Part shown: positions 5,446-57,533 of the stretch, piece by piece
Position numbering within the stretch: position 1 is the first letter of the stretch
How the letters are laid out: the number at the start of each line of letters is the position of its first letter
The notes under the pieces: model-generated
Databases searched by the model: none
The model's input: the letters and a program-made list of their open reading frames with translations, nothing else
What the model was told of the DNA's origin: nothing
Assembly: GCA_963756595.1 (NCBI GenBank)
Contig: CAVWOZ010000057.1
Location: 24,707-88,706, forward strand
Length of the DNA stretch: 64,000 nt
Reading direction: 5' to 3'
From: an uncultured Acidobacteriota bacterium
Lineage (GTDB): Bacteria; Acidobacteriota; Thermoanaerobaculia; Multivoradales; UBA5704
Program-made: the position numbers and the translations under genes

Positions 5446-5469
5446 GGGGCCAGGTCGTCAGGAGGATTC

Positions 5470-9949: not shown

Positions 9950-10118
9950 CAACTGCACTCGACGGGCCGGCGGCTTGTGCGCGTCGCTACAAGCCATCTT
10001 GGAAGGTTCCCCACCGCGCGCCCCGAAGGGGCGAAAATTTGATTAGCCGGGCGCTTTAGCGCCCGGTATCGGACGTTCCCTATCCCATCCGCCCCGAGGG
10101 GGCGGTGCTCTTTGCGCG
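9950..10118. repeat. REP-like hairpin repeat, full copy in direct orientation to the 9255 copy.
   Basis: Identical in more than 90% of positions to 9255-9420. Confidence 0.75.
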
Positions 10119-24095: not shown

Positions 24096-24794
24096 CTCCG
24101 CCGTCCGCGCAGGCCGGCTCGCCGGCTCCCCGGCCCCGCCGATCACCACCACCAGCTCCCCCTTAATCGAAGGGCGTCCGGAGAGCTCCGCCAGCAGGGT
24201 GGAGAGGGCGCCGCGCAGCATCTCCCCGCGGAGCTGGTCAGCTCGCGGGCGACGGCGGCGGGGCGGTCTCCCAGCTCTTCGCGGGCGTCGGCGAGGCTCG
24301 CCAGCAGGCGGTGGGGGGACTCGAAGAGGATCAGCCAGAGGGCGAGCCGGCCCAGCCGCGTAGAAGGTCCGCCGCTTCCCCGTCTTCGGCGGCGGGAAGC
24401 CAGCGAAGGTGAAGGGGTAGGGGGGGAGGCCGGAGGCGACCAGGGCGGCGACGGGGGCGGCGGGGCCGGGGATCGGCTCGACCCGCGCTCCCGCGGCGAC
24501 CGCCTCGCGCACCAGCACGAGCGGGGTCGGAGAGGAGGGGGGCGCCGGCGTCGCTCGCCAGCGTGATCGCTTCCCCTCGCCAGCTCGCCGAGCAGGCGGG
24601 GGAGGCGCTGGCGCTCGTTGTGCTCGTGGAAGGAGACGAGCGGCTTCTTTATCCCCAGGTGGGAGAGCAGCCGGCCGAAGTGCTGGGAGTCCTTCAGGCC
24701 ACCAGGTCGGCCGACTCGAAGGCGGCGCGGCGCGCGGCGACAGATCGTCGAGGTCGCCGATCGGGGTGGCGACGATCAGGAGCAGGCCGGGCAT
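24078..24794 (-). CDS. rsmI: 16S rRNA (cytidine1402-2'-O)-methyltransferase RsmI, frameshifted.
   Basis: MPGLLLIVATPIGDLDDLSPRAA..., ...REAVAAGARVEPIPGPAAPVAALVASGLPPYPFTFAGF.PPKTGKRR..., ...ELTKLRGEMLRGALSTLLAELSGRPSIKGELVVVIGG. Confidence 0.6.
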   Translation of the reverse strand: MPGLLLIVATPIGDLDDLSPRAAPPSSRPTWWPEGLPALRPAALPPGDKEAARLLPRAQRAPAPPPPARRAGEGKRSRWRATPAPPSSPTPLVLVREAVAAGARVEPIPGPAAPVAALVASGLPPYPFTFAGFPPPKTGKRRTFYAAGPARPLADPLRVPPPPAGEPRRRPRRAGRPPRRRRPRADQLRGEMLRGALSTLLAELSGRPSIKGELVVVIGGAGEPASRPARTAERGDAE

Positions 24795-24838
24795 GGTGCA
24801 TGGTGTCTTTCCGAAAGCGGGGCGACGCCAGCATGGAG

Positions 24839-25675
24839 GCATGAATACCGGCTCGCCCGCCCCGCTCGCTCGCCGCCCTCCTCCTGGCGGGCTTCCCCGC
24901 CGCCGCGCATACCCCGCCAAAACCCGTTCCAAGGTGCAGAAGCGGCCGCGAAGGCGCCGGCCGCCGCCGCTGCCACGGCCGCCGCCCGCCGCAGCCCAGA
25001 GACGCTCAAGGACCGGGTGCTCGCCGTGGTGGACGACGATCCGATCCTCGGCTCCGACGTCGAGCGGGTCGTCCGGCTCGGGCTCGAGACGCCGAAGGCC
25101 GGGGAGGCCCCCGCCGTCTTCCGCCGCCGGGTGCTCGACGAGCTGATCGAGCAGCGGCTGCAGTTTCACGAGATCGACCGCTTCGGCTTCGAGCAGGTGC
25201 CGGTCGACGAGATCCAGCGGCGGGTGGCCGCCATCCGCGCCCGCTTCCCCGACGAGGCGGCGTTCCAGAAGGCCCGAGGAAGTCGGGCTCGACCCCAAGG
25301 GGCTGCGCCAGCTCGTCACTCCGCCAGCTCCTGGTGCTCACCTACGTCGACGAGCGCCTCGGCCCCAGCGTCTTCGTCACGCCGGACGACGTCAACCGCT
25401 ACTACCGCGCCGTGCTGATCCCCGAGATGCAGAAGCGCGGGCAGCCGGCGCCGCCGCTCGACCAGGTGCGCGAGGACATCGCGAGCACTGAAGCAGCAGA
25501 AGATGACGGCGCAGATGGAGAGCTGGACCAAGGGGCTGCCGAGAAGGCGGACGTCCTCCTCTACAGCGCCGACGCGCCGGGCGGCCAGCCGCTGCCGCCA
25601 GTCGTGAAGACGCTGCGGACTCCCGCCAAGAAGGACGCCCCCAAGAAGGACGCCGCCAGGAAGCCGCCGGTCTAG
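24839..25675 (+). CDS. SurA N-terminal-domain periplasmic chaperone-like protein, with two or more frameshifts.
   Basis: ...LKDRVLAVVDDDPILGSDVERVVRLGLE...FRRRVLDELIEQRLQFHEIDRFGFEQVPVDEIQRRVAAIRARFPDEAAFQKA..., then ...QLLVLTYVDERLGPSVFVTPDDVNRYYRAVLIPEM... Lys-rich C-terminus. Confidence 0.5.
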
Positions 25676-25832
25676 AGAGCCCGCGGGTCCGCACCGACCT
25701 GTCGTCCTTTCGATCCCTTCCCGCTCTCCCCTTGTCCGTTTCTCTTGTCCCGTTTCTCTTGCGAGCTGAACCAAGTCTTGTAGAAAGGGGTATGCTGAAA
25801 CATCTCTCATGCAAGAAACCAGCGCCGAGCTT

Positions 25833-26690
25833 CTAGCTCGCCTCCGGCCAGCTCTGGAGGAGATCTTCGCCGCCTATGGGATCTCCGGGGAGCAGGCGCG
25901 CCATATCCTCGAGGAGAGCGTGCTCCTGCTGATCAGCAAGCAATGGGACCGGCAGAACCCGGAGCGCTGGCTTCTGCGGATGGTGTCGAACGCTGCCGCG
26001 AGGCGACGCGGCTCTAGCCCCTGCCCGCGAAGCTCCGCGGAAATCCGTGCTCGAGCCGCAGCCCCGCGAAGGTGTCGCGCAGGAACGTCTCCGGCCGCTT
26101 CGGCAGCTTCCAAGACCTCGGAGGCTCACCCGCTCGATCCGCTCTGCCATCTCCAGGCTCTCCGTCAGCTCCACGTCGTAGATCCCGGCCTCGCGAGCGG
26201 CCTCGAGGAGGAGGCGCAGCTCCGCTTCCAGCCGATGGCGGGGGTGGAGCGGCCCGGGCGGGGTGACGGGGGTCAGCTTGAGGACGGTGGCGATTCCCTC
26301 GGCCGTCAGGCTCTGCGCCGCCCGCAGGCGCGGACCCGGATCGAGCACCGAGGGGAGGGGTACGATCAGCCGCACCGTCACCGCGTGGCGACGGTCGAGC
26401 TCGGTCAGCAGCTCGATCTCCCCCAGGATGCGGGGCGAGGCGGTGGTGATCGCGATCTCCAGCCCGTCCGCGAACGGCAGCAGCTGGCGCAGGGGGCTCT
26501 CGTCCCCGCTGTTGCCATGGGTCGTCGACGGCTCGTAGGGCGCCGCCACGGTGCCGAGCACGATGGGAGCGCGACGGAGGGCGGCGCGTTTGACGCTGCG
26601 TTCCTGGCCGCGGGCGATCGCCTCCGCGGGGTCGGAGCGGAGGCTCGGAGAGAGGACGAAGAGGAGTGGGAACGTCGCTTGGCGAATCAT
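25833..26690 (-). CDS. COG1533 (SplB-like radical SAM 'DNA repair photolyase') homologue, but missing the N-terminal CxxxCxxC region. Has its own sigma70-like promoter.
   Basis: ...PIVLGTVAAPYEPST.....LEIAITTASPRILGEIELLTELDRRHAVTVRLIV...PRLRAAQSLTAEGIATVLKLTPVTPPGPLHPRHRLEAELRLLLEAAREAGI matches the TIM-barrel core of the family. No Cys triad. TTGACA-17-TAAAAA sits upstream of the ATG. The C-terminal ~80 aa may be out of frame. Confidence 0.45.
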   Translation of the reverse strand: MIRQATFPLLFVLSPSLRSDPAEAIARGQERSVKRAALRRAPIVLGTVAAPYEPSTTHGNSGDESPLRQLLPFADGLEIAITTASPRILGEIELLTELDRRHAVTVRLIVPLPSVLDPGPRLRAAQSLTAEGIATVLKLTPVTPPGPLHPRHRLEAELRLLLEAAREAGIYDVELTESLEMAERIERVSLRGLGSCRSGRRRSCATPSRGCGSSTDFRGASRAGARAASPRGSVRHHPQKPALRVLPVPLLADQQEHALLEDMARLLPGDPIGGEDLLQSWPEAS

Positions 26691-26777
26691 GTTACGCTCT
26701 TTTTACGCCGATCCGCCGCCGCTGTCAAGAGGCAATTTCCGCTCCACTCTCGCCCCGACACCGCCTAGACTACACCG

Positions 26778-27865
26778 ATGGATTTTCACCGGGAAGCCTT
26801 CGTCCTCGACGCCCACACCGACGCTCCCACCCGTCTCTGGGAAGAGCCGGCGGATCTCGCCGAGCGGCGGACCGACCGCCACATCGACCTGCCGCGCCTG
26901 CGCGAGGGGGGCGTCGACGCCGTGGTCTTCGCCCTCGACGTCCCCGCGTCGATGGACCCCGAGCGGGGGTGGGCGCACGCCCAGGAGCTCTACCGCCTCT
27001 CGACCGCGGCGTTGATCCCGGGCGAGCTCGTCAGGCGGCGACCGCCCACGACCTCGAGGCGGCGGCGCGCCGCGGCGAGGTGGCGGTGCTCTTCGGGCTC
27101 GAGAACGGCCGGCCGCTGACGGTGCCTGGGGCGGTCGACGACCTGGTGAAGATGGGGGTGCGCTACGTCACCCTCACCCACTGGTCGTCCCACGAATGGT
27201 GCGACGCCTCGACCGACGAGCCGCGCCACGGCGGCCTCTCGCCCGAGGGGGAGCGGATCGTCTGGAAGCTGGGGAAGCTCGGCATCCTCCCCGACGTCTC
27301 GCACGTCTCGGACGACGCCGTCCGTCACACCCTGGAGGCCGCCTCCGGCCCGGTGATCGCGAGCCACAGCTCCGCCCGCGCCCTCTGCGACCACCCGCGC
27401 AACCTGCCGGACGACCTCATCCGCGAGATCGCCCGCTCCGGCGGCCTGGTGATGGCCAACAGCTACCCCGCCTTCGGGGCCCCGAGCCTCCCGCGCCGAC
27501 GCCCGCCGCGGCGACGAGATCAAGGAGGCGATGCGGGAGATGGAGGAGGAGTACTTCCGCGACCCGCACAAGCTCTGGAAGGAGAGGCACCGCCTGGTCG
27601 CCGACCGCCCCTGCCGCCGGTCCCCCTCTCCCTCTTCGTGGACCACATCGTCCACCTGATCGAGAAGGCCGGAGAGGAGCACGTCGGCATCGGCACCGAC
27701 TTCGACGGCATCCCGGACGTCCTCGAAGGACTCGAGGACATCTCGAAGTTCCCCGCCCTCACCACCGCCCTCCTCGACCACGGCGTCGACAAGGCCGGAG
27801 TGAAGCTCATCCTCGGCGGCAACTTCCTGCGCGTGCTGGCGGAGGCGGAGCGGGTGGCGGGGTAG
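26778..27865 (+). CDS. Membrane dipeptidase (peptidase family M19), frameshifted.
   Basis: FVLDAHTDAP...GGVDAVVFAL..., ...VRYVTLTHWSSHEWCDAS..., ...ILPDVSHVSDDAVRHTLE...VIASHSSARALCDHPRNLPDDLIREIARSGGLV..., ...HVGIGTDFDGIPDVLEGLEDISKFPALT... Confidence 0.7.
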
Positions 27866-27889
27866 GGGGCGGGATATTCTGTAGCTGCC

Positions 27890-28540
27890 ATGCTGACCCC
27901 GCTCCTCGATACGCTGCCGCCCTCCCAGCGCCGGCTCTGGAGCGAGCTGGCAGCCGTTCCTCCCGATTTCGTGCTCTACGGCGGCACCGCCCTGGCTCTC
28001 CGGCTGGGGCACCGGACCTCGGAAGACTTCGATTTCTTCTCCAACCAAAGCTTTCAGCCGGACGACCTGGAGCGGAGAATCCCCTTTCTCGCCGGCTCCC
28101 TCGCCTCCAGTCCTCGCCCAACACCCTGGTTTCGCGGGTCGAGCGGAGCGGCCAGTCAAGGTCTCCTTCTTCGGCGGGCTGACGTTGCGACGAGTTCAGG
28201 ACCCGAGAGGGTGGAGGGGCCCGGGTTTCCCGTGGCTTCGTTGCTGGATTTGGCGGCTACCAAGGTCAAGGCCGTTCAGGATCGCGCCGAGGCCAAGGAC
28301 TACATCGACCTGAGCCGGCTACTGGAAGAGGGGGTCGATCTCGCGGGGGCTCTGGGCGCGGCGCGTACCGTCTATGGGCAGGCCTTCAATCCCATTCTCA
28401 GCCTCAAGGCGCTGAGTTACTTCGCGGACGGTGATCTTTCATCGCTTTCCAGTAGCGTTCGATCGCGGTTGACCGGAGCCGTCCGCAGGTCGATCCCGAT
28501 CGCCTCCCCAATTCCGAACCGTGCCCGGGAGGCATCGCGT
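27890..28540 (+). CDS. Nucleotidyltransferase of the AbiEii/AbiGii toxin family (DUF1814). Frameshifted; the 3' end is uncertain.
   Basis: LWSELAAVPPDFVLYGGTALALRLGHRTSEDFDFFS... carries the NTase motif. ...VASLLDLAATKVKAVQDRAEAKDYIDLSRLLEEGVDLAGA... is the typical C-terminal helix of the family. Confidence 0.6.
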
Positions 28541-28541
28541 C

Positions 28542-28810
28542 ATGACCGACTTGGAGACCGTGGCCAAGCGGCTGTTCTGGTGGAAGACGCCGGCCGAGGC
28601 TCTCGAGGATTCGAACCGTTTTTTGGCCCAGGTGATGACCTACGGGACGATCGAGGATCTGGCGGTGGTCAACGGGAGTTTCCGGAGAGCGCTCTGCGGG
28701 AGGTGCTCGCGAATCCCCCCGCGGGCGTCTTCGATCCGCGATCCTGGAGTTACTGGCACGTACGCTTCGGCCTTGAGCCGGGGGAGTTGCCGAGACGGAC
28801 ACTGCCCTGA
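28542..28810 (+). CDS. Small protein (~89 aa) downstream of and overlapping the AbiEii-like gene. Putative partner, with a frameshift near 28680.
   Basis: GGGAGG RBS 10 nt upstream of ATG 28542. MTDLETVAKRLFWWKTPAEALEDSNRFLAQVMTYGTIEDLAVVNG. continues as .FPESALREVLANPPAGVFDPRSWSYWHVRFGLEPGELPRRTLP*. Confidence 0.4.
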
Positions 28811-28989
28811 TTCACTTAATGAAGAAAAATGGCTGGCCCTCCCGCCACCAAAAGCCCTATACCCGCCTACCCCGTATGGATCCCTGCGCACATCCGTAAA
28901 AATGGCGGGTCTGCCGAAGACGGACAGACGCCTGAGTCCTGAGTTTCCCTCACGTGAGATATCCTGCCCTATTTGCACTGCGTGAGCCC

Positions 28990-29470
28990 TTTTACCGGTG
29001 GCTAACTCTGTCGTATTCTTTGTGTTGGAAAAGAGAGCACCCCCCCCCCCCCCCCGTTCCTATCTGTCCTCCCCCCGTTCCGCCCGTCCCAAACTACTCT
29101 ATTAGATGCGCGACGTGATTTCTCCAAACCTAAAGTACCTGAACTGGCTTCTCTTCCGACAAACTGAGTTCTTTCCGACTTCTCCCGACCCTTGGTCATT
29201 GACGATCAAACGTATCTTGCCTCATTTGTTTCCCATTCCCCCTCCCATCTCTCCGAAACCCTCTCCAAACCCTTGACCTCCGATATATATAACTAGGTTT
29301 TAAGACGTTCGTTTCCTCCCTCTGGGGCTGTTGAACCCAAAACCTTGTCTCCCACCGCCCTCCCACCCACCTAAAAACATACGAAAAAAGACGAAACCGC
29401 GCCGTTGAAACTATCTCCCCCCCCCGCTTTCATCTCCTCTTATAATCCGCGCCGAAGCTTACCTCGGCGA
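28990..29470. other. Low-GC (~47%), CT-rich non-coding tract (~480 bp) with a C17 homopolymer (29040-29056). It ends in a hairpin at the stop of the minus-strand HTH gene.
   Basis: Strong strand asymmetry (pyrimidine-rich plus strand). No ORF with an RBS. Motifs include tatatataactagg, ccctcccacccacc, and the hairpin gcgccgaagcttacctcggcgaattacggcgc at 29440-29475. Confidence 0.5.
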
Positions 29471-29471
29471 A

Positions 29472-29680
29472 TTACGGCGCGGCCTCACCCTCCGGCTCGA
29501 AGATCTGTTCGATCGCGACGCCGAAGAGGCGGGCGAGGCTGAAGGCGAGGGGCAGGCTGGGATCGTAGCGCTGGGTTTCAATCGCATTGATCGTCTGGCG
29601 CGAGACGCCGAGGCGCTCGGCGAGCTCGGCCTGGGACCAGTTGCGCTCGGCGCGAAGGAGGCGGAGGCGGTTGGTCAAGC
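29472..29680 (-). CDS. Small XRE-family HTH transcriptional regulator (Cro/C1-type), 69 aa.
   Basis: TNRLRLLRAERNWSQAELAERLGVSRQTINAIETQRYDPSLPLAFSLARLFGVAIEQIF. The TTG start overlaps the upstream stop (cTTGAcc). Confidence 0.7.
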
Positions 29681-30148
29681 GTCGGGGCCTTCGTCGTCGT
29701 GTTCGGCGTCTTTTCCAGAATACCGCCGCGTGCCGAGCCAGGTGCCGGCGCTCCAGGCGAGCATCATGGCGACGGCGACCGCGTACTCGCCGAGCTTGGG
29801 GGCGCCGAGCAATTCGAGCAGCGGATAGAGCAGAGAGACCAAGGCGCCGGCGCCGAAGCCGAGCGCCAGCGCCTCGGTCTGGATCCTGCGCAGCAGCTCG
29901 TCGGCCTGGCGGAGAAAGATCACGTAACGCCGGATCGCCTGAAGGGCGAGGACCCACGCCAGGGCGGAGAGCAGCCACGGCAGCGCGCCGGGGAGCGACG
30001 CCCGCCAGCGGAGCGCCGCCGTGGCGCCCAGGTAGGCGAGCCCCGCGGCGAGCATCCAGAGGGTGAAGCGGCGCTGGTTCCTGGCGTCGCGCGCGGTATA
30101 GAAGCCGTTGCCGCACCCCGGCTCGGGCGAGGTGGGGCTCCCCGTCAT
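29675..30148 (-). CDS. Membrane protein (three predicted TM helices) co-transcribed with the small HTH regulator. DUF2178-like arrangement.
   Basis: ...RRFTLWMLAAGLAYLGATAAL...LPWLLSALAWVLALQAI...ALALGFGAGALVSLLYPLLELLGA... followed by an acidic tail. Confidence 0.5.
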   Translation of the reverse strand: MTGSPTSPEPGCGNGFYTARDARNQRRFTLWMLAAGLAYLGATAALRWRASLPGALPWLLSALAWVLALQAIRRYVIFLRQADELLRRIQTEALALGFGAGALVSLLYPLLELLGAPKLGEYAVAVAMMLAWSAGTWLGTRRYSGKDAEHDDEGPDA

Positions 30149-30486
30149 CCGCCGGATTCCGCCGGCAGCCCGGCGGCGAGCCAGCCCGTGATCCCCGCCG
30201 AGAGGACCTGGACTTCGCGATAGCCCATCTTCTTGGCGCGCCGCGCCGCCAGCGGCGCCTTGCGGCAGAACGGATTCGAACAGTAGAAGACGAGCGCGTG
30301 ATCCCGTTCGACCGGCAGCGCGCTCTCCGGAAACGCCTCGGGGTCGAGGTGGCGGGCTCCCGGAATGTGCGCCTCGCGCCAGCTGCCGGGCGAGTTGACG
30401 TCGAAGATCGCGATCGGCTCGCTCTGCATCCGCCGGCGCAGGGTCGCAGGATCGACGGTCTTCAGTCCCATCAGGCGAGCGATCAT
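30145..30486 (-). CDS. Single-domain rhodanese (sulfurtransferase).
   Basis: ...IAIFDVNSPGSWREAHIPGARHLDPEAF...VFYCSNPFCRKAPLAARRAKKMGYREVQVLSAGITGW. The active-site Cys lies in the CSNPFC loop. Confidence 0.75.
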   Translation of the reverse strand: MIARLMGLKTVDPATLRRRMQSEPIAIFDVNSPGSWREAHIPGARHLDPEAFPESALPVERDHALVFYCSNPFCRKAPLAARRAKKMGYREVQVLSAGITGWLAAGLPAESGG

Positions 30487-30831
30487 GGCTGGGCTTGCCG
30501 GCACGCGGGACGCCGGCCCTCGGCGCGCAGAACGAGCGGGAGCATGACGGAGCTGCCGAGGATCGGGATCATGGCGGCGAATTGCTCGGAGCCGCTCGAC
30601 GCCAGGATTCCGCACGCGATGGAGAAGCCTGCGGCCAGCACCAGAACGATCGGGGACGGCAGGAAACGCCGGCGCTGGACCATGTCGGCGCCGAGGAGCG
30701 CGAGCACCACGAGCGCGGGACAAGCGACGGCGGCCCACAGGGCATGAGGAGCCGCCTTGATCAACACGCTGGCGAGCAGCAGGACGGCGGCACAGAGCAG
30801 GGCAGGACCCAGGTTCGAGAGTGTGGTTTTC
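30483..30831 (-). CDS. Small membrane protein overlapping the rhodanese start (split YgaP-like arrangement).
   Basis: MKTTLSNLGPALLCAAVLLLASVLIKAAPHALWAAVACPALVVLALLGA... gives 3 TM helices. 4-bp overlap ATGA. Confidence 0.5.
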
Positions 30832-30851
30832 ATGGCACAGACTGTAAAGCG

Positions 30852-30883
30852 TCCTTGACGCGATGTCAAGGGTGCTTGACGTC
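30852..30883. promoter_or_regulatory. Operator-like palindrome in the promoter region of the minus-strand membrane/rhodanese/HTH operon.
   Basis: CCTTGACgcgatGTCAAGG is a perfect 7-bp inverted repeat, followed by a third TTGAC half-site (gtgcTTGACgtcc). Confidence 0.35.
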
Positions 30884-31187
30884 CTGTCTATCCGAAGCTG
30901 GTGGGAGTCTTCCTTCCAATTCCTCGAAAGCAGCCTCCCCGTCCAGAAGCTCTCCTCGGTCGGCTTGGTCCAAGCCGATCTGGATCTGGCGGCGGAGTCG
31001 TTCCGTAGGGTTTTCCAGATCATTTCTCGGATCTTGCTTAGTCATGATCCAGAGTGAGTCGAGCTCCCGCGCCCCTGCGCTGTATAGCGTACATCGCTAC
31101 GGCCATGCAGGGAGCGAAGGAGCGGCTCCTCTAGCGGCCAGACGTTTTGTGCGCGTTGCCAAAGGGCATCCTCGCACTGTCCCTTGA

Positions 31188-31425
31188 AGCGTGCCCGAAG
31201 GGGCGAAAATTTGATTAGCCCGGTGCTTTAGCGCCGGGTTCCAGAGGTTTCTCATTTCCATCCGCCCCGAAGGGGCGGTGCATGTGCGCAACATGTTAAT
31301 TGCAGAGATTTGCCTGAAAGGCACCGCCCCTTCAGGGCGGATGAAAAATGTGGTGCTACGATACCGGCGCTAAAGCACCGGGCTAGTCAAATTTTCGCCC
31401 CTTCAGGGCGCGCTGTAGGGAGTCT
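31188..31425. repeat. Two full REP-like repeat copies in inverted orientation (~95 bp each) separated by ~40 bp. Together they form a large composite palindrome.
   Basis: 31188-31285 forward: cccgaaggggcgaaaatttgattagcccggtgctttagcgccggg...ccgccccgaaggggcggtgc. 31320-31425 is its reverse complement. The ORFs 31097-31324 and 31310-31573 are translation artefacts of the repeat. Confidence 0.75.
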
Positions 31426-31597
31426 TCCAGGGGGTCTTTTGGCGACGCGTAGAAAGCGCCAGGCCGTAGACTTTTTGAAGTCTTCCCTGCCTGACGGAGC
31501 CAGAGACCTCCGCATTATTATGCATGACCCTTTCGCTCCCCGCGACAAAGGGCAAGAGCGTGACCACAGGTAGCGAACTTCGGTGCACTACACCAGG

Positions 31598-32562
31598 CTA
31601 CCGCTGTCCCACCGCGGCCGCCACTCCCTCCACCACCCGGGCCATCCGTACGTAATCCAGGGACGCCGCCGTGTCGCCGGGCGTGTGGTAGCTCGGGTTG
31701 CGGACGAACGAGGTGTCGGTGACCATCACGGCGGGAATCCCGAGATCCCAGTAGCTCCGCTGGTCCGAGGCATCGATGCCGGCGTCGCGCGGGGCGATGA
31801 GGCTGACGGCGGGAAAACCCGTGCCCTGGATGGCGAGTTTGGCGTCGCGGGTCAGGCTGCGGTCGGTCCAGCGGCTCACGACGGCGATGAAGTTCCCCCG
31901 GCGCGGGTAGAGCAGGCGGAAGAGGAGGTTGGGGGCGGGTTGCCGCGGGGTGAAGTAGCCGATCATCTCGAGGCAGATCATGCCGCGGACGGTTGCCCCA
32001 GCAGCACTGCTTGCCACTCCCTCGTCCAAGCGGCGCGCTTCCTCTGGAGTAGCCACCAGCTCCACCCGCGTGGACGGCGGCCGGCTGCCGGTTGCCGAGG
32101 AGACGGGCGAGCTCGAGGAGGCCCGCGGCGCCGCTCGCGTTGTCGTCCGCCCCGGGTTGGGTCCGAACTCCCCGAAGGAGTCGTAGTGGGCTCCGACCAC
32201 GAGGAGAGGGCCGGCCGCGGGGCCGAAGTCCGCGACCACGTTGCGGTACGTCCGGCCGCGGATCGCGAACGTCTGATCGAAGACCCTGGCACTTGTTGGC
32301 GCGAAACCCTGCCGGAGGTAGGTCGCCGCCGCGTCGAGGCGCTCCGGGTGGTCGCTGTCCCGCGGGCGAGGTCGGTCAGACGCTGGACGTCGCGCCGCAG
32401 CCGGCTGGGATCGGCGCGGGGGCCGTTCCGGGAGACGCGGACGCCGAACGTCGGCTGGGTGATCGCCACGGCGGCGAGGCCGAAGAGGAGCGCCAGCGCG
32501 GCGGCGGTGGCGAGGAGGATGCGGGCGAGGCTGTGCCAGATGTATCGCATGTAAATCCGCAT
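31598..32562 (-). CDS. M28-family peptidase (aminopeptidase), with a frameshift near 32300.
   Basis: Signal/TM RILLATAAALALLFGLAAVA. ...LLVVGAHYDSF... (zinc ligand His/Asp). ...YHTPGDTAASLDYVRMARVVEGVAAAV. Confidence 0.65.
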
Positions 32563-32628
32563 GGAGATTGGTACGAGAGCCGGCGGTGGTTCATCGCTTG
32601 CGATACTCTCCCACCCCGGAGCTTGCCG

Positions 32629-33812
32629 TGCCCTGGAAACACCTCATCCTGCTCACCCTGCCGCTGTGGATCGTCTGCGGGGCCTGCCTTTCGCTGACGG
32701 CGCGGTCGGTGCTCCACCAGGGGCTGGTCGACGTGCCGGGGCAGACGCTCGCGGAGCGGCTGGACGAGACGTTCCGGACGTTCGACGGCGAGCGGCCGGG
32801 GGTGGCGGTCGGGGTGTCGCGCAACGGCGAGGTGCTCTATCAAGCGGGGCACGGACTTGCCGACCTCGAAAGTGAGCGGCGGATCGATCCGCACACGGCG
32901 TTCCACATCGCCTCGGTCGGCAAGCAGATGACGGCGGCGGCGGTGATGATGCTCGTCGAGCAGGGGAAGGTCCGGCTCGACGCCCCGGCCTCCAGCTATC
33001 TCAAGGAGATGCGCGGCTGGGCGCGCGGGGTCACGGTGCGCGACCTGCTCCAGCACACCGCCGGCATCCCGGACACCTACCAGACGCTCGAGGAGCAGGG
33101 GTCGACCCCGACCGGCCTCGACGCCCTGCGCCTCCTCGCGCGCTGGAAGCGGCTCGACTTCGAGCCGGGGACGCAGTTCCTGTACAGCGATTCGGGGTAC
33201 GACATCCTGGGCGTGCTGATCGAGCGGGTCTCCCATGTCTCCTATCCGCGCTTCATGGAGGAGCACATCCTGCGCCCCGCGGGGATGAGCGAGTCGTTCG
33301 TCTACGACAAGGCGAAGCTGGCCCACGTCAAGCGGGCGCTCGGCTACCAGCGCCAGTTCCTGGCCGGCTGGGAGCTGCGGGACGACAGCCCGCTCAATCT
33401 GCTCTACGGCTCGGGCGGGGTGTACTCGACGGTCGCCGACCTGGCGCGCTACGACCGCGCCCTCTTCGGGGGCACCCTATTGCGCCCGGCGAGCCTCGCC
33501 GAGATGCTCAAGCCGGCCGTGCTCGCGGACGGCACCGTGATCTCCTACGGCTTCGGCTGGTCGGTGAAGACTGACGAGACGACCGGCGAGCACACTTACG
33601 CCCACTCCGGGAACTGGCTGGGGTTCACCTCGTTCTATCTCCACTTTCCCAAGGACGGCTTGGCGGTGGTGATCCTGGCGAACGGCTCGGACGTCGACGC
33701 CGAATCGCTCGCCGCCGCCACCGCCGGGATCTTCCGTGCCTTCGGCAATCCCAAGGTGGGACCGAAGCCCGTTTCCGCGAGCGCGCCGCCCCACGCCGGG
33801 CCGAAGCGTTAA
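32629..33812 (+). CDS. Serine hydrolase of the beta-lactamase / PBP4-like (class C-related) family, exported.
   Basis: Signal peptide. SxxK motif ASVGKQMT. YSDSGY and HSGNWLGF-type motifs. Confidence 0.8.
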
Positions 33813-34279
33813 GGGGCCGACGCCGGCGCCGGTTCCGGCATCCCCTCGAGCCGGCGGATCTCCGCCTTGAGGGCTTCCGGCAGCGGGATCGGACGGCCGG
33901 TCGCGTAGTCGACCCAGACCACGGCGCAGCCGCCGTCCGCCACCCGTTCCCGCGACTCGCGGAAGACGATCTCGTACTCCATCTTGAAGCTGGTGCGGCC
34001 GATCTCGGAGACGCGGACGCCGACGTCGAGCTCGGCCGGCCAGCGGACCTGGCGGCGGAAGTTGAGGTTGGCGCTGACCAGCGCCGGGCCGTGCGTCGGC
34101 GCGGCGGCGTTCTCGCGGCCGTGGATCGCCTCGAAGTAGCTCATGCGGGCCGACTCGCAGTAGGTGAAGTATTTGGCGTTGTTGACGTGCCCGAACGTGT
34201 CGACGTCCCCCCAGCGGACGGCCACCGGCTCGACGAGCGCTGCGACGAAGCTCCCTTCCGGACTCTCACTCATCTCCAT
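33809..34279 (-). CDS. Acyl-CoA thioesterase (4HBT/YbgC hotdog fold).
   Basis: ...VRWGDVDTFGHVNNAKYFTYCESARMSYFEAI..., ...FKMEYEIVFRESRERVADGGCAVVWVDYATGRPIPLPEALK... Confidence 0.75.
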   Translation of the reverse strand: MEMSESPEGSFVAALVEPVAVRWGDVDTFGHVNNAKYFTYCESARMSYFEAIHGRENAAAPTHGPALVSANLNFRRQVRWPAELDVGVRVSEIGRTSFKMEYEIVFRESRERVADGGCAVVWVDYATGRPIPLPEALKAEIRRLEGMPEPAPASAP

Positions 34280-34317
34280 ATCTCCTTGGACGGCTCTCCG
34301 GTATTCTCTCCCGCTGT

Positions 34318-35164
34318 GAGCCCCGCCACCACCCCACCCCGCCCCGCCTACTGGCAGGAGTGGCTCGCCAACCGGCTCTTCTTCCTGATGTCTCCCGGGC
34401 TGACCCGGAGCCCGCAGCCGGAGCCGCCGGACGGCCTCGGGCCCTGGGAGCCGGTGACGATCGAGCGCCGGCGGGGGCGCGGGGTGCTCTCGGGGCACTG
34501 GTTTCCCGCCGGGCCCGGCGCGGGTGACGCGCGCGGGGCGGTGCTGCTCCTCCACCCCTGGCTCCCCTGGGGAAGCTCCTACTTCTTCCGGCGCGGCCGG
34601 TTGCAGGCGCTGCGCGCCGCCGGCTACGACGCGATGACGGTCGACTTTCCCGGCTTCGGCGGCAGCGGACCGCCGGCCGGCTTCCTGGACCGCGACGTCG
34701 AGGACGCCCTCGAGCACCTGCGCCGCCGCAATGGCGATCGCCCCCTCCACGTCTGGGGGGTCAGCTCGGGGGCTTACTGGGCTCACCTGGTGCTGAGCCG
34801 GGGAGAGGGCGCGGACGGCGCGATGTTCGAGGACGTCTCCGCCCACCTGCTCGAGTGGTCGTGGCGGCGGGTTCCCCGCGGGCGCCCGCTCTACCTCGTC
34901 TTCCGTACCTGCCTGCGCCGCCCGTACCGCTATCTCGACCTGCGCCGCCACGCGCCGGCCCTGCGGGTCAAGGCCGCCGCGTACGTGGGGGGCGAAAAAG
35001 ACCCCGGGGTCTGGGCCGACGAGACCCGCGAGCTCGCCCGCCTCGCCGGCGCCCGCTGCCTGATCGTCCCCGGCGCCGACCACCTGGCGGCGATCAAGCT
35101 CGCCAACCAGGAGGTGATCGAGCTGGGGTTGGCGACCTTCCGGGAGGCGGAGAGGGTTTCCTAG
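34318..35164 (+). CDS. Alpha/beta-hydrolase fold protein.
   Basis: GTG start. Nucleophile elbow HVWGVSSGAYWA (GxSxG). ...LIVPGADHLAA... contains the His. Confidence 0.7.
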
Positions 35165-47472: not shown

Positions 47473-50400
47473 CTACCGCGTCTTGACCTCCATCGTCCCC
47501 CGCTCGCCCACCGCCCGCAGGGCTGGGTTGTACATCGCCTCCACCTCGACGGGCGGCAGCCGGAACTGCCCTGGGGCCACCGCGCGCACCAGGGTGTAGA
47601 ACGTCTGCCAGCTGTCGGCCGGCAGGTCCACGAAGAGGAGGATGCGGTCGTCGCGCAGGTCCATCGAGCGCGGCTGGAGGTTGGCGTCGGTCACCCAGGG
47701 GAGCTGCTCGGTGCTCGACAGGCGCGGGTTCTCGACCTCCAGCCCCGAGGGGAGGAGATTGACGATCACCACGTTCTGCACCCCGCCGGAGACGCTGCGC
47801 ACCCGCGTCTTGATGGCCACCAGATCCCCCTGCCGCACGGCGTTCAGATCCACCGGCTTGCCGTCGCGGTCGAGGAACTGGCGCTCGATCTGGAGCCCCT
47901 CGCTCGCCGGCCTGAAGGCGTCGTCGGTCGGCACGCCGCGGGTGAGGACGCTGTAGAACGCCGCTCCCGGCTTGTACCCGGCATTCATCTGGAGGCGGAT
48001 CGCGCCGGCTCCCAGGATCGGCGGGAAGGTCACCGTCCGGTTATCGAACGTCCCGATCTTCTTGCCGCCCACGAACAGCGTGCCGCTGTACGGCGGCTGC
48101 TTGGCCTGCTTCTGGAGGAACTGGCCGATCGCCAGCAGCGTGAAGCTCTCCTCCTGGGTGGTCCACCAGTAGTCCGTCTTGGCGTCGCGCGCCAGCCGGT
48201 CGACCAGGGCGGGGATCTGCGGGCTCCGCGGATCGGCGTCGAGTAGGGCGAGCAGCAGCAGCGCCCGGTTGCGGATCGCCGAGTCGAAGTTGCCGCCGGT
48301 CTGCCGCTGGATCTCCTGCACGGCCCCCACGTTCGCCGCCAGGCTGGCCGTCGCCCGCGGGTTCCCTGCCGCGGCGTAGGCCGCGGCGAGCATCGCCCGC
48401 GACTCAGCCGAGAGCTCCTTGGCGTGCTTCTGGCGCACGAAGTCCATGGTGCCGAGGTCGCCCTTGCCGGCCCGCGACAGCACGTAGAGGCCGTAGACCG
48501 TGCGTTGCAGCTCCTCGCTGCCGTACGTTCCCTTGGCCTTCACCTCGCCGGCGAGCCAGGTCAGGGCGTTGCGGTAGAGGCCGTCCTCCACCGGATGCCC
48601 GGCCCGCCGCGCCTCGACCAGGAAGTGGGTGGCGTAGACGCTCCCCCACGGATGCACCTGCTGCTCCCCCTGCCAGAGGGAGAAGCCGCCCCCGGGGAGC
48701 TGCATGGTGGCGATCCGCCGGATGCCGGCCTGCACCAGCACCGCCGGGTCCGCATGCCCCTTCTTCGGATCGAGCAACCCCGGATCGAGCGCCTTGGCGA
48801 TGTCCCCCACGTAGATCAGCGGGAAGGCGCTCGACGTCGTCTGCTCCAGGCAGCCGTAGGGATAGTGGAGCAGGTGCTCGAGCTTCCCGGCGAACTGCAC
48901 GAGGGGGATCGGGCTCACCCGCACCGTCCGGCGCAGCGTCTCCGGCCGGAAGCGGTCGAGATCCTTGCCGGCGAGGTCGAGGGTCGCGGCGTTCATCCCG
49001 CCGACCTCCTCGACCGGCAGCTCCGGCAGATCGGCGCGGATCGAGACGTTGGTGGTCGACCGCGACTGCTCGCCGTTCCCCGCCGCCGTCGCCAGGAAGG
49101 CGACGTTCCCCGCGCCGTTGCCGGTCTTCACCGTGAAGTAGACCGTCTTCTCGCGGCCGGCCGGGATCTCGACGGATTGCGTCCCCTTCTCGATCTTGAC
49201 CGGCCCTTGAGCGGACAGCCCGACCGTGATCGCCCCCGGCTTCCCGGTGTCGTTCCGCACCGTGACCGGCACCTGGAGGGTCTCGCCGAACGACAGGATG
49301 CGCGGCAGGGTGGGGAGGAGGACCAGCGGATCGCGCACCCGGGTGAGGCGGAACGACGAGCCGAAGCGGTCGTCCGCGATCGCCACCGCCATGATCCGCA
49401 GCGCCCCCTGGAACTCCGGCACCTTGAAGGCGACCTTGAGGTTGCCGTCCTTGTCCGCCGTCCGCGGGCCGGACCAGAAGACGACCGGTTCGGTGCGGCG
49501 GATCCCCTCCGTCCGCACGTACTGGCTCATCCCCTCCGCCCCCTCGCCGCCGCCGGGCGCCAGGCTCTTGAGCTCAGGGAGGAGGAGGCTGAAGGTGTCG
49601 TAGGAGATCACCCCCAGCGCCAGCCGGCGGTAGAAGAAGTCGAACGGCTCCGGCGTCTTCTGGGCGATCAGCTGGAGGATCCCCTCGTCGACCGCGGCCA
49701 CCGTCACCACCGCGTTGGGGACGGTCTTGACCGCGATCGCCAGCTCACGCCCCGGCCGCATCTGGTCCGGCGCCGTGATCACGGGGGCCAGGTGGTTCGA
49801 GGTCCGGTTCACCGGGAGCGGCACCGCTCCGAACGCCCGCCCCGCCGAGCCGGCCTCGAGGTCGCCGACCTTGCGCACCAGCGTCGCCGTGACGTAGGCG
49901 TTCGGCCGGTACTCCCCCTTGATCGGCACCTGGATCTTCGCCGTGTTCCCCTTCATCTCATAGATCTGCGTGTCGAGCACCCGGTCGCGCTCGACGGTCA
50001 GCAGCAGCTTGCCCGGGAACGGCGCCCGCACCTGCACGGTCGCCGTGTCCCCCGCCGCGTACTCCGTCTTGTCGAGGTCGAGCTCCAGCCGCGACGGGTT
50101 CTTGATCGCCCACGGCGAGGTCCCCCACCCCGAGGCGTAGAACTCGACCTCGGACGACGCCTGCGACTCGGCGTCGGTCAGCACCACCCGGTAGCTGCCG
50201 TAGGCGCGCGGGGTGAGGTCGAAGCCGCCGCGCGTCTTGCCGCGGGCGATGGTCTTCGAGGCGATCAGCACCGGATCGCGCGTCGTCTCGTAGCGCCAGC
50301 CGCCGGCCGGGGTCTTGCGCAGCACGGTGTTCCAGCGGTCCTCGAAGAGGTCGGCCCGCAACGCCCCCGACGCGGTCTCCTTGCCGTCCGGCGTCACCGC

Positions 50401-52982
50401 CACGTACTCGAACCCCGCCGGCTGCCCCGGCGTGGCGAACCCTTCCTCCGGAGTGGTCCCGCCGCCGGCCCGCCGCAGCCCGACGTAATACGGATAGGGA
50501 TGCACCTGGAGGCGCTGCATCGCCGCCACCCCGCGCCCCCCCTGCTCCTGGACCCGCGCCGTGATCACCGCCTCGAGCGACGAGGGGACCGGCGCCCCGG
50601 CCGGCATCTCGACCTTGAACTTGGAGCCCCCCTCGTCGTCCAGCTTGCCGGTGGTGGAGAGCACTTCCTTGTCGTCCAGCTTGCGGTCGGCGTTCCGGAA
50701 CGAGAACGTCTCGTACCCCTTGGGGGCGAACGTCGAGTCGGCGAGCCGCACCCGCGTCTCGACCGGCAGCCCCGCCGCCGGCGCCCCGAACAGGTAGCTC
50801 GAATTCACCTGGTACTCGAGCGTCTGCCCCGGCCCGATGTTCGCCTTGGGCGGCACGATCGCCACCGAGATCCGGTCCGGCACGAACTCCTCGACGTGGA
50901 ACCGGTACTGGCCGATCACCTTCTGCGCCACCTCCAGCTCCAGCGTGTGCACGCCGGTCAGCGAATAGGCGGGAAGGGCGAGCTCGAAGGGGGCCAAGCC
51001 CTTGTCGCCGATCATCAAACGCCGCGTCTCGATCTCTCGCCCCTGCGGATCGCGGTGGCGCAGCAGCGCCGGCATCGTGGGGGGGATGTGGAGCGCGCCG
51101 TCGCGCACCACCGTCAATCCCTTCAGGGTCTCCCCCGGCCGGTAGAGATCGCGCTCGCCGTAGAGGAACGCCGTGTACCCCTCCCCCGCGGCCTCGGCGC
51201 CGCCGACGTCGAGCCCGGTCGAGTCGATGGTCATCGTATGGAGGAGGAGGAAGGTGAAGTCGTCCCCCTTCTCGATCGTCACCATGTAGGGGGTCCCCTT
51301 GGCGAGCGCCTTGGGATCGGCTTTTCCGGAAATAGTCCTCCACACCCCCGTCCCGTCCGTCCGCCCGGAGGCCATCACCTGGTTCTGGTCCGAGATCAGG
51401 GTGACCTTGGCGTCTCCCACCGCCGCGAGGTCCTTGAGCGACGACACCCAGACCAGGAATTCCCCCGCCGGCCCGCGCTTGGCCACGGCGCCGAGGTCGG
51501 TCAGCAGCAGCCAGCGCTGCGCCGCCTCCTCCGAATCCGGCTGCCCCACCGAGACGCGGTAGAGGCCGGGCTCCTTGGTATTGATCCACTTGTCGAGGGC
51601 GAGCGGGAAGGTCCGCTTCTTGTTCTTGCCGCCGCCGACGTTCAGCGTCACCTCCTTGAGGCGGTCGCCGAGGGCGTGCTGGAGCTCGCCGACGTAGCCG
51701 CTCTCCTCCTCGAAGAAGCCGCCGTACGTGAAGAGGAAGAAGAGGTTGTTGAGATAGACGCGGTCGATCGTCATCTTGACCTTGGGGACGTTAACCGCCT
51801 CCATGGCCACGGCATGCTTGCCGCCGGACCACAGGAACATCCCCTGGCTCTGGAAGCCGACCGTGGGGTCGAGGTCCGGCAGGTCGACCTCCTGCTCGAA
51901 CGGCTTCTGGAGCACCGCCTCGTCGGTGGCGGGCATCCCCTGGGCGATCTTCAGCGTGTAGCTCTCGCCGGGGGTCATCTCGCCGGTGATCGAGAGCTCC
52001 GTGCGGTCGGCGGCGAAGCGCGGTTTGTTGTTGCCGCCCGGCGCCGGCTCGATCGTCACGTACTTCTCCGCCACGGCGGCCGAGACCGGGGAGGAGAAGG
52101 TGACCTTGAGCGTCGACTCGCGCGGCCCCGGCTGCGTCTCCACCTTGCGCACGGCGAGCTGCGTGCTCGAGCCGACCGCGATCTCCTTCCTGTACTCCTC
52201 GCCGAGCGGCACGTTCCCCTGCGCCGGGGTGAGGGATGGGGCGATCGTCAGCTCGATCTTCCGCTCCTCCTTCCGCTTCTGCACCGGCTCCGTGCGGTAG
52301 CCCACGACCTGGCTGTTGTACTCCGTCTCCAGGGTGACCGCCGTCCCCCCCGGCTTGTCCGGATCGGCCAGCTTGACCAGGGGAGCGAGCGTCTTGGGAT
52401 CGACCGCGTAGTTGAACCGCAGCTCCCCCCGGAACACCACCTTCCCCTTCCCCTCGAGCGCCGGCTCCTCGAGGACGGTCACCTCCTCGACCAGGAACTT
52501 GTCCGTCTTGACCGTGAGCTCCGTCTCGCCGCTGAACACCTGCGTCCCGCTCACCACCTTCGCCGGATCGAGCTCCACCTTGTACTCGCTGGCCACCGGC
52601 AGCCCACCGCTCGGCGTGAACCGTAAAGCATTGGTGTCCTGCCACTTCCAGGACCCGCCCAACGCCGGAAAGATCTTCGCCGGAGCCGGATCGAGCACCT
52701 CCCCCACCTTCCCCTGTCCCAAAGGCTTGTCGAACAAGACATCGAAGTACTGCCGCCCCTGCCGGTCCACCACCACATCAAACACCGAAACCGTCTCCCC
52801 CCCTTCGCCCCCGCCTTGAACTTCGCGAGCGCCTTGGAGAGGGGGGCGCGGAAGGCGTAGGCGGACATGGAGAGGAAGAGGAGGGCGAGGACGCCGATGA
52901 GGACGTCCTTCCAGTGGAGGCGGCGGAGGGCGGCGAGGAGCCGGGACGGGAGGTTTTCCCGCGTTGAGAGGGTAGGGGTCAT
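47473..52982 (-). CDS. yfhM: Bacterial alpha-2-macroglobulin (YfhM-like), ~1835 aa, with a frameshift near 52800.
   Basis: N-terminal signal-anchor MTPTLSTRENLPSRLLAALRRLHWKDVLIGVLALLFLSMSAYA. Thioester motif CLEQ in ...PYGCLEQTTSSAFPLIY... MG domains throughout. Classic pbpC-yfhM pairing. Confidence 0.85.
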
Positions 52983-57479: not shown

Positions 57480-57533
57480 GTTGGCATAAGGTTGGCATAT
57501 CGCGCTTGTACGTCTTGACAAGGTTGTCGTGGG

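What the first reader, a model, noticed from the sequence alone, without database searches (positions are those of the whole stretch)
28990..29470. 480-bp CT-rich, low-GC non-coding tract with a C17 homopolymer between convergent genes
In a ~70% GC genome this segment is about 47% GC. It is extremely pyrimidine-rich on the plus strand, so G/A-rich on the minus strand. It contains a 17-nt poly-C run at 29040-29056, and further C/G-tracts such as ccctcccacccacc and cccccccgc. It has no credible ORF.

It lies between the 3' ends of the AbiEii-like module and the HTH/membrane/rhodanese operon, and ends in a hairpin at the HTH gene stop. Possible interpretations:
- a structured or G-quadruplex-forming ncRNA, transcribed from the minus strand as G-rich RNA;
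- a hypermutable homopolymer, as in phase variation;
- an integration scar marking the edge of the adjacent mobile TA module.
Basis: seen in the sequence. Interest (0 to 1): 0.6.

Follow-up and report, generated by a model that had tools for sequence, protein, structure and literature searches.

The report
Garbled assembly of a strain-specific insert
The odd C/T-rich "non-coding" tract is most likely not real DNA: it looks like a long-read assembly error that squeezed a 1.9-kb, gene-carrying, strain-specific insert into 643 garbled bases.

Summary
The tract exists as described, but the numbers are off. The C-run is 16 nt (29040-29055), GC is 52%, and pyrimidines make up 64% of the + strand.

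A second contig (L001) is 100.000% identical to the window on the HTH side, over 1,598 and 2,261 nt. Where the window has 643 nt (28812-29454), L001 has 1,919 nt of balanced, ~50% GC DNA. That DNA encodes a ~290-aa HEPN-like protein with 388 database homologues, plus a 95-aa ORF.

The parts of the window tract that can be aligned are copies of this insert. They show 0 substitutions and 30 separate 1-4-nt deletions. The deletions are base-specific: 29% of minus-strand C is lost against 4-9% of the other bases. This bias creates the strand skew.

The stretches that cannot be aligned are each about 22% as long as their L001 counterparts. The C16 run lies in one of them.

The adjacent 3 kb carries 12 single-base deletions that frameshift genes which are intact in the relatives. 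Three relatives have an empty site with an 11-17 nt spacer, so the insert varies between lineages.

There is no Rfam hit, no folding signal and no conservation.

Verdict: a consensus artefact at a site that varies between related genomes, not a real feature (confidence about 0.85). Low interest.

The parts
28812..29454 (.). The tract proper: 643 nt standing where the sister contig L001 has a 1,919-nt insert (L001 3920-5838). The flanks are identical to L001 up to these exact positions.
   Evidence: blastn and exact-match anchors; global alignment with 644/645 bases matched in order, 0 mismatches and 1,277 L001 bases missing.
29106..29219 (-). Block B: a deletion-riddled copy of the 3' half of the HEPN-like gene (L001 4955-5081, encoding ...MTKGREKSERTQF...WRNHVAH...).
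   Evidence: z = 23 against shuffles; 0 mismatches and 16 bases missing in 13 gaps; weak tblastn match to P0001 residues 210-270.
28903..29031 (.). Block D: a deletion-riddled copy of L001 5402-5549 (spacer plus the 3' end of the 95-aa ORF). The recognisable copy continues weakly to about 28862.
   Evidence: z = 20; 0 mismatches, 22 bases missing in 17 gaps and 1 extra base; anchors; continuation seen.
29220..29454 (.). Interval A: 235 nt where L001 has 1,035 nt (ratio 0.227). Minus strand is 40% G and 12% C. Origin cannot be shown by alignment. Holds the C9 run (29417-29425) and one hairpin arm.
   Evidence: z about 1 against shuffles; no other source in the window or loci.
29032..29105 (.). 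Interval C: 74 nt where L001 has 320 nt (ratio 0.231). Minus strand is 55% G. Holds the C16 run.
29040..29055 (+). C16 homopolymer (G16 on the minus strand). L001 has no homopolymer here, only about 20 scattered G's within roughly 75 nt.
28812..28902 (.). Interval E: 91 nt where L001 has 289 nt. The first ~41 nt (28862-28902) are still a recognisable copy. The remaining 50 nt face 233 nt of L001 (ratio 0.215).
   Evidence: (z = 6).
29450..29469 (-). 8-bp hairpin just downstream of the HTH stop. The arm at 29462-29469 is real sequence shared with L001. Five of the eight bases of the other arm are tract sequence. No U-run follows.
29472..29678 (-). HTH_3 (XRE-type) regulator, 68 aa, last gene of the rhodanese-membrane protein-HTH operon. 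100% identical to L001.
28542..28810 (+). 89-aa gene downstream of AbiEii, intact in L001, L024, L025 and L026. Frameshifted in the window by a single-base deletion near 28673.
27890..28545 (+). AbiEii-family nucleotidyltransferase gene. It is 219 aa and intact in L001 and in all 9 members of its 90% cluster. In the window it is broken by single-base deletions and read through as a false 306-aa ORF.
26778..27865 (+). Peptidase M19 gene. It is 363 aa and intact in L001 and 12 other cluster members. In the window it is split over at least two frames by single-base deletions.

Best explanation
The tract is most likely a consensus or assembly artefact, not sequence that exists in any cell.

**What is really at the site (shown).** Genomes very close to the window carry a 1.9-kb insert of about 50% GC, squeezed between the 89-aa gene of the AbiEii module and the HTH gene. 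It encodes a ~290-aa HEPN-domain protein and a 95-aa ORF. More distant relatives have an empty site there.

**How the artefact arose (inferred).** The window's contig was probably built from long, error-prone reads. Over this strain-variable insert the consensus was badly supported. This could be because it rests on one or a few poor reads from one strand, or because reads with and without the insert were merged in a collapsed strain bubble. Either way, most columns were dropped.

**What remains (shown).** An in-order subsequence of the true insert:
- About 87% of bases are kept in two stretches.
- The three intervening stretches are each about 22% as long as their L001 counterparts.
- Minus-strand C is lost preferentially and G is kept.

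That bias produces the C/T richness on the + strand, the lower GC, the loss of every ORF and the C16 run.
For: 1. L001 (ENA ERZ25039594 contig_90811) is 100.000% identical to the window over 29455-31052 and 32602-34862. It has 1,919 nt where the window has 643 nt.
2. L001's version is the genuine one. It is one reading frame (with a single in-frame TGA) that is 70% identical over 286 aa to P0001. It belongs to a family of 388 homologues whose C-terminal half hits Pfam HEPN.
3. The alignable parts of the tract (B and D, 260 nt) show 0 substitutions, 30 separate gaps of 1-4 nt and 1 extra base. They score z = 20-23 against shuffles.
4. Genuine divergence in this lineage is the opposite kind: 442 substitutions against 35 gaps in 7.3 kb for the window against L003.
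5. The losses are base- and strand-specific. Minus-strand C is lost at 29%, against G 4%, T 7% and A 9%. C depletion and G enrichment are seen in all five blocks.
6. The three unalignable intervals are shortened by nearly the same factor: 0.227, 0.231 and 0.215.
7. The adjoining 25800-28811 has 12 single-base deletions, 0 insertions and 7 mismatches against L001. These frameshift M19, AbiEii and the 89-aa gene, which are intact in L001, L024 and L026 and in 9- and 15-member protein clusters.
8. Of the 44 bases missing from the window in 24135-28811, 38 are present in both L001 and L026.
9. The site varies between related genomes. The spacer is 11 nt between the two stop codons in L026 (11-17 nt in L024, L025 and L026), and L026 comes from the same sample as L001. 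L003 lacks the whole AbiEii module.
10. Another probable homopolymer frameshift lies elsewhere in the window, at a run of seven C (G on the gene's strand) at 52797-52803 in an alpha-2-macroglobulin gene.
11. Related MAGs (L003 = MFD04580.bin) come from Nanopore-only Flye plus one round of Medaka (PMC12313526).
12. Long-read metagenome assemblers are documented to produce haplotyping errors at variable sites, regions supported by one or no read, and unsupported indels that break ORFs (bioRxiv 10.1101/2025.04.22.649783).
Against: - No reads were available, so the artefact is inferred from comparison, not seen in a pile-up.
- I do not know the sequencing platform or assembler of the window's own contig. 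It is an NCBI record of 110,908 bp.
- Intervals A and C, which hold the C16 and C9 runs, cannot be shown to derive from L001 (z about 1). They could be real, unrelated sequence.
- I have no verified mechanism for why G is kept and C dropped.
- The errors are oddly local: 3.9 kb on the other side is error-free against L001.
- No near-identical strain with an empty site was found. The empty sites are in relatives of 88-93% identity.
Confidence: 0.85

Rival explanations
1. Partly real. The window's strain carries a genuinely shorter or rearranged variant of the insert. Intervals A, C and the unrecognisable part of E would be real sequence that replaces parts of the L001 insert, but the whole region was read at very low consensus quality.
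For: - Intervals A and C show no significant similarity to L001.
- L001 and the window also differ by clean large indels elsewhere (31053-31990 and 32053-32601), so structural variation between them is real.
Against: - The three intervals shrink by the same factor of about 0.22.
- They share the same C-depleted, G-enriched bias as the demonstrably corrupted blocks, which points to one process acting on one template.
- Even under this reading the verifiable parts carry about 13% deletions, so the C16 run and the composition cannot be trusted.
Confidence: 0.08
2. Real relic. The insert was eroded in vivo by many small deletions, leaving a pseudogenised, G-rich (minus strand) remnant.
For: - Bacterial genomes have a known deletional bias (general knowledge).
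- The order and orientation of the remnants are preserved.
Against: - It needs at least 30 independent micro-deletions in 300 nt with no substitution at all, and none in 3.9 kb of identical flank.
- No known biological process removes C from one strand only.
- The neighbouring essential-looking genes carry the same kind of single-base deletions.
Confidence: 0.04
3. A G-rich, G-quadruplex-forming or otherwise structured ncRNA transcribed from the minus strand downstream of the HTH gene.
For: Two canonical G4 motifs lie on the minus strand (29040-29055 and 29351-29368), out of 7 on that strand in the whole window.
Against: - No Rfam match.
- Folding z = -0.47.
- No promoter-like site.
- No conservation in any of six related loci.
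- The sequence is probably not real.
Confidence: 0.015
4. A hypermutable poly-C/G contingency tract that drives phase variation.
For: A 16-nt homopolymer is far beyond chance, with 0.002 expected.
Against: - It is not inside or upstream of any gene.
- It lies between two 3' ends.
- There is no homopolymer at the homologous place in L001.
- It sits in the most corrupted interval.
Confidence: 0.015

Closest known systems
Haplotyping errors, single-read-supported regions and 'non-existent sequences' in long-read metagenome assemblies (Trigodet et al., bioRxiv 10.1101/2025.04.22.649783)
   Same: - The location is a variable site flanked by conserved sequence.
- The contig sequence matches neither real allele (filled or empty).
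- Nearby indels break ORFs.
- metaFlye-type pipelines are named as prone to unsupported indels.
   Different: - That study used PacBio HiFi and diagnosed errors from read mappings, which I could not do.
- The paper does not describe the deletion-only, base-specific 'subsequence' pattern seen here.
Low-quality stretches ('glitches' or junk) of raw nanopore reads, and the deletion-dominated errors of unpolished long-read consensus (my own knowledge, not tested)
   Same: Deletion-dominated, strand-specific errors, low-complexity output and spurious homopolymers.
   Different: - The platform of the window's contig is unknown.
- A constant ~22% length ratio (4.5-fold shortening) and near-exclusive retention of G are not a documented signature that I can cite.
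AbiEii (nucleotidyltransferase) and HEPN toxin-antitoxin or defence islets: the real biology under the artefact
   Same: - L001 and relatives carry an AbiEii-family gene (Pfam PF08843, E = 7e-20; PADLOC AbiEii) plus an overlapping 89-aa gene.
- In L001 only, there is also a HEPN-like gene with an Rx4H motif (RNHVAH). All of this is inserted between convergent housekeeping genes.
   Different: - No AbiEi antitoxin gene is present upstream.
- The HEPN-like gene has an in-frame stop in L001.
- No function was tested.
- None of this is encoded intact in the window.
Contingency loci (poly-G/C phase-variation tracts of Neisseria, Haemophilus and Campylobacter; my own knowledge)
   Same: A long G/C homopolymer.
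   Different: The run is not in a coding region or promoter, is not present in the sister contig, and has no associated gene.

Membership tests
Long-read consensus or haplotyping artefact | Lies at a site that is polymorphic (insert present or absent) among related genomes, with conserved flanks. | tested here: met
   Filled site in L001, empty site (11-17 nt) in L024, L025 and L026, whole module absent in L003. No empty site was found in a near-identical strain.
Long-read consensus or haplotyping artefact | Differs from the genuine sequence by indels, mostly deletions, rather than substitutions. Genes are frameshifted while relatives have them intact. | tested here: met
   Blocks B and D have 0 mismatches and 30 gaps. 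The adjacent 3 kb has 12 deletions and 0 insertions. M19, AbiEii and the 89-aa gene are intact in L001, L024 and L026.
Long-read consensus or haplotyping artefact | The contig sequence is not supported by the reads (clipping, zero or single-read coverage). | not testable with these tools
   No reads are available and the source sample of the window is not identified.
Long-read consensus or haplotyping artefact | The assembly was made from error-prone long reads. | tested here: inconclusive
   L003 comes from the Nanopore-only Microflora Danica MAG set. L001 and L026 have Flye-style contig names. The window's own record (110,908-bp NCBI contig) could not be identified.
Structured ncRNA (any Rfam family) | Match to a covariance model, or conserved structure with covariation. 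| tested here: not met
   No match at the gathering threshold. The best hit in the tract at E up to 10 is noise (13.6 bits for a human lncRNA model). Folding z is -0.47 and +0.85. No homologous copies exist to test covariation.
G-quadruplex-forming element | Four or more G-runs of at least 3 with short loops on one strand. | tested here: met
   Motifs at 29040-29055 and 29351-29368 on the minus strand. The sequence criterion is met, but it is meaningless if the sequence is an artefact.
Phase-variable contingency locus | A homopolymer inside a reading frame or a promoter spacer of a gene. | tested here: not met
   The run lies between two 3' ends, with no ORF or promoter-like site.
Phase-variable contingency locus | Tract length varies among close relatives or reads. 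| tested here: not met
   The only near-identical relative (L001) has no homopolymer at all at the homologous position. Read-level variation is not testable.
Intrinsic terminator (for the hairpin at the HTH stop) | A GC-rich stem-loop followed directly by a U-run. | tested here: not met
   The stem is present but is followed by GGAUUAUAAG. The terminator scan does not report it, and one arm is absent from L001.

The most novel reading that the evidence does not exclude
The sequence is real. In the window's strain the HEPN-gene insert would have been eroded by a strand-asymmetric, base-specific micro-deletion process with no substitutions. Candidates would be repair of modified or damaged bases, or G4-associated slippage. 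The result would be a G-rich relic with a G16 run. A milder version: the base-specific loss reports a real DNA modification of this insert that derails base-calling.
Probability: 0.04. Interest if true: 0.7.

Novelty: not a real feature. Interest (0 to 1): 0.08.

Why it matters
- **As biology: very little.** The tract should not be annotated as an ncRNA, G4 element, phase-variation tract or scar.
- **As quality control: useful.** It flags window 25.8-29.5 kb as locally unreliable. The apparent pseudogenes there (M19 peptidase, AbiEii, the 89-aa gene) are most likely intact in reality.
- **As a warning for sequence-only scans.** An extended strand-skewed, ORF-free, homopolymer-bearing patch at a strain-variable site in a long-read MAG can be a consensus artefact.
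- **The real locus underneath is ordinary.** It is an AbiEii-type module plus a strain-specific HEPN-gene insert between convergent housekeeping genes.

Tried and rejected
- **Rfam**, at gathering threshold on the whole window and at E up to 10 on 28500-29800: nothing relevant.
- **tRNA/tmRNA scan**: none.
- **Promoter and terminator scan**: no promoter; terminator-like hits at chance level.
- **Internal and tandem repeats**: only short chance-level pairs and the homopolymer.
- **Small ORFs** in the tract: low-complexity, no Pfam hit.
- **RNA folding** of both strands: not better than shuffles.
- **Deriving intervals A and C from L001.** I tried global and local alignment, with C stripped from both sequences, and short-word BLAST against the window and all loci. 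None was significant. Their origin stays unproven.
- **Exact 35-mers of the tract in IMG/VR**: no match.
- **Window-wide test for frameshifts at homopolymers**: too noisy in this GC-rich DNA to use.
- **Blend of L001-like and L026-like haplotypes?** Mismatches split 71 to 62, which is uninformative.

Full report
**1. Observation**

The region is in the sequence roughly as described. Window 28811-29471 (661 nt) lies between two converging 3' ends. One is the TGA of a + strand 89-aa gene at 28808-28810. The other is the TAA of the - strand HTH gene at 29472-29474. It has no credible ORF: all candidates are at most 65 aa, low-complexity and without a Pfam hit.

It is the most extended composition outlier of the window:
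- GC skew is -0.38 to -0.50 over about 400 nt, against a window sd of 0.12.
- The maximum 300-nt pyrimidine fraction is 0.677, against a mean of 0.504 and sd of 0.043.

- The C-run is 16 nt (29040-29055), not 17.
- GC of 28990-29470 is 51.8%, not 47%.
- The window GC is 66.5%.
- Pyrimidines are 64.0%.

The run is not chance, since 0.002 runs of at least 16 are expected. The window's next-longest homopolymer, C9 at 29417-29425, is also in the tract.

**2.

- Rfam gives nothing for the tract, at the gathering threshold or at E up to 10.
- There is no tRNA or tmRNA and no sigma-70-like promoter. Terminator-like hits are at the chance rate.
- Folding energy is no better than dinucleotide shuffles on either strand: z = -0.47 on the minus strand and +0.85 on the plus strand.
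- The minus strand does contain two canonical G4 motifs.
- The hairpin next to the HTH stop is real in this sequence (8 pairs, 29450-29469). It has no U-run, and five of the eight bases of one arm lie in the tract.

**3. The key comparison**

An exact look-up of the neighbouring 157-aa membrane protein returned L001, which is ENA ERZ25039594 contig_90811 (31.6 kb).

L001 is 100.000% identical to window 29455-31052 (1,598 nt) and 32602-34862 (2,261 nt). It is 96.5% identical to 24135-28811. Between window positions 28811 and 29455, however, it has 1,919 nt where the window has 643 nt.

L001's 1,919 nt are compositionally balanced (A .23, C .28, G .25, T .24; about 50% GC) and coding:
- One frame from about 4320 to 5189, with a single in-frame TGA, is 70% identical over 286 aa to P0001.
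- It belongs to a family of 388 homologues of about 290 aa. Their C-terminal half reaches the Pfam HEPN threshold in several members and carries RNHVAH, an Rx4H motif.
- A 95-aa ORF follows on the other strand.

L001 therefore holds the genuine sequence. The window holds a shortened version of it.

**4. The nature of the shortening**

A global alignment places 644 of the 645 window bases in order on L001 with no mismatch. On its own this proves little, because a shuffled tract also embeds. I therefore tested sub-blocks against shuffles:

| Block | Window | L001 | Result |
|---|---|---|---|
| B | 29103-29228 | 4944-5085 | z = 23 |
| D | 28898-29031 | 5402-5556 | z = 20 |
| E | 28811-28897 | 5557-5839 | z = 6 |
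| A | 29229-29455 | 3919-4943 | z about 1 |
| C (holds C16) | 29032-29102 | 5086-5401 | z about 1 |

Local alignments and alignments with C stripped from both sequences did not rescue A or C.

In B and D together there are 0 substitutions, 30 separate gaps of 1-4 nt (38 bases) and 1 extra base. The losses are base-specific. On the minus strand 29% of C is lost, against 4% of G, 7% of T and 9% of A. All five blocks are depleted in C and enriched in G on that strand. This is what makes the + strand C/T-rich and G-poor, lowers the GC and destroys the ORFs.

The C16 run faces an L001 stretch with about 20 scattered G's. In the forced global alignment, which is not statistically supported for this interval, the G's line up and nearly everything else is skipped.

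Using exact-match anchors, the three unalignable intervals are shortened by almost the same factor:
- 235/1035 = 0.227
- 74/320 = 0.231
- 50/233 = 0.215

This argues for one process acting on one template, rather than for unrelated real sequence.

**5. The neighbourhood shows the same fault at a lower dose**

Against L001, window 25800-28811 has 12 single-base deletions, no insertion and 7 mismatches. These deletions break three genes:
- The M19 peptidase gene, a single 363-aa ORF in L001.
- The AbiEii gene, 219 aa in L001 and a false 306-aa read-through ORF in the window.
- The 89-aa gene.

The intact lengths are the rule elsewhere. All 9 members of the AbiEii 90% cluster are 219 aa, and 13 of 15 M19 members are 363 aa.

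In a three-way alignment, 38 of the 44 bases missing from the window in 24135-28811 are present in both L001 and L026. The window is therefore the odd one out.

Genuine divergence in this lineage looks quite different: 442 substitutions against 35 gaps in 7.3 kb for the window against L003.

Elsewhere in the window, an alpha-2-macroglobulin gene appears split at a run of seven C (G on the gene's strand) at 52797-52803. Its signal/TM N-terminus lies in another frame. This is the classic long-read homopolymer error.

**6. The site varies between related genomes**

- L024 (JGI, 89.7 kb), L025 (JGI) and L026 (ENA ERZ25039594 contig_90810, the same sample as L001 and the adjacent contig number) are 88-93% identical to the window.
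- All three have M19, AbiEii, the 89-aa gene and then the HTH gene. The spacer is 11 nt between the two stop codons in L026 and 11-17 nt across the three loci.
- L003, an Acidobacteriota MAG (MFD04580.bin.1.42), lacks even the AbiEii module. Its M19 and HTH stops are about 6 bp apart.

The locus therefore exists in at least three real states: no module, module only, and module plus the 1.9-kb HEPN insert. The window's 643 nt match none of them.

**7. Mechanism**

- Shown: the tract is an in-order, deletion-only, base-biased reduction of the L001-type insert. It is flanked by deletion-type frameshifts and sits at a site that varies between related genomes.
- Inferred: it arose during assembly or polishing of long, error-prone reads. 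Either the insert was covered by one or a few poor reads from one strand and never corrected, or reads with and without the insert were piled up in a collapsed strain bubble so that most columns fell below the consensus threshold.

The Microflora Danica MAGs, to which L003 belongs, are Nanopore-only. They were assembled with Flye --meta --nano-hq and polished with one round of Medaka (PMC12313526). L001 and L026 have Flye-style names.

Long-read metagenome assemblers are documented to produce haplotyping errors at variable sites flanked by conserved sequence, regions supported by one or no read, and unsupported indels that corrupt ORFs, notably with metaFlye (bioRxiv 10.1101/2025.04.22.649783).

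I could not identify the window's own record. It is a 110,908-bp NCBI contig. I could not see reads, so the mechanism is unverified. I also cannot explain why G in particular is retained.

**8. Rivals**

- A genuinely shorter variant of the insert read at low quality is possible (about 0.08). The sequence would still be untrustworthy.
- A real in-vivo relic (about 0.04) needs dozens of micro-deletions with no substitution and none in 3.9 kb of identical flank.
- The ncRNA/G4 and phase-variation readings (about 0.015 each) lack any support beyond the raw motifs.

**9. Verdict**

This is not a real feature, with confidence about 0.85, and interest is low. Read mapping or junction k-mer counts would settle it.

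Noticed in passing
window 5473-5518 (-), 5625-5670 (+), 10019-10066 (-): Three matches to the Rfam Acido-Lenti-1 sRNA (52.8, 51.9 and 37.0 bits; gathering score 37). Two form a divergent pair about 150 nt apart. This fits the Acidobacteriota origin suggested by L003.
   Followed up: no
window 52797-52803 (genes 47473-52785 and 52551-52982, - strand): A 1,770-aa bacterial alpha-2-macroglobulin ORF lacks its N-terminus. A 60-aa signal/TM-like N-terminus (MTPTLSTRENL...AKFKAGAKGG) lies just upstream in another frame. The two frames meet at a run of seven C (G on the gene's strand). This is probably a homopolymer indel error rather than a pseudogene.
   Followed up: partly
window 25800-28811: Twelve single-base deletions relative to L001 frameshift the M19 peptidase, AbiEii and 89-aa genes. 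These apparent pseudogenes are probably assembly errors.
   Followed up: yes
window 30884-31610 and 31053-32601: A 727-nt stretch of 55-60% GC (30884-31610) is absent from L003. L001 lacks 31053-31990 and 32053-32601, which include most of an M28 peptidase gene, but keeps the 62 nt between them. This is either a second strain-variable spot or a collapse in L001's assembly. The small ORFs at 31097-31324 and 31310-31573 have no Pfam hit.
   Followed up: partly
window 53000-58700: A large low-GC block (down to 39% GC, against 66% for the window). It has ORFs for a class I methyltransferase, a ParA/MinD-like P-loop protein, a sodium:solute symporter-family protein and a B12-binding radical SAM enzyme. 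It is probably a horizontally acquired cluster.
   Followed up: partly
L001 3914-4170: The genuine insert starts, right after the HTH stop, with several copies of a motif around AAGCTTYCCTGGC / TGYAAGCTTCYCT (3914, 3934, 4093, 4154). These could be binding sites or terminal repeats of the inserted element. None is recognisable in the window.
   Followed up: no
L001 4320-5189 (+), and P0001-P0120: A widespread family (388 hits) of ~290-aa proteins with a C-terminal HEPN-like domain (Rx4H motif RNHVAH) and an N-terminal half not covered by any Pfam model. Here it sits next to an AbiEii-family nucleotidyltransferase module that has no AbiEi gene upstream and an overlapping 89-aa gene downstream, which could be an unconventional partner.
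   Followed up: partly
window 24135 and leftwards versus L001 10543 onwards: Synteny between the window and L001 ends at window 24135. Window 24135-25800 is much more diverged from L001 (substitution-rich, partly matching L026) than 25800-28811. This suggests recombination between strains or a chimeric contig.
   Followed up: partly
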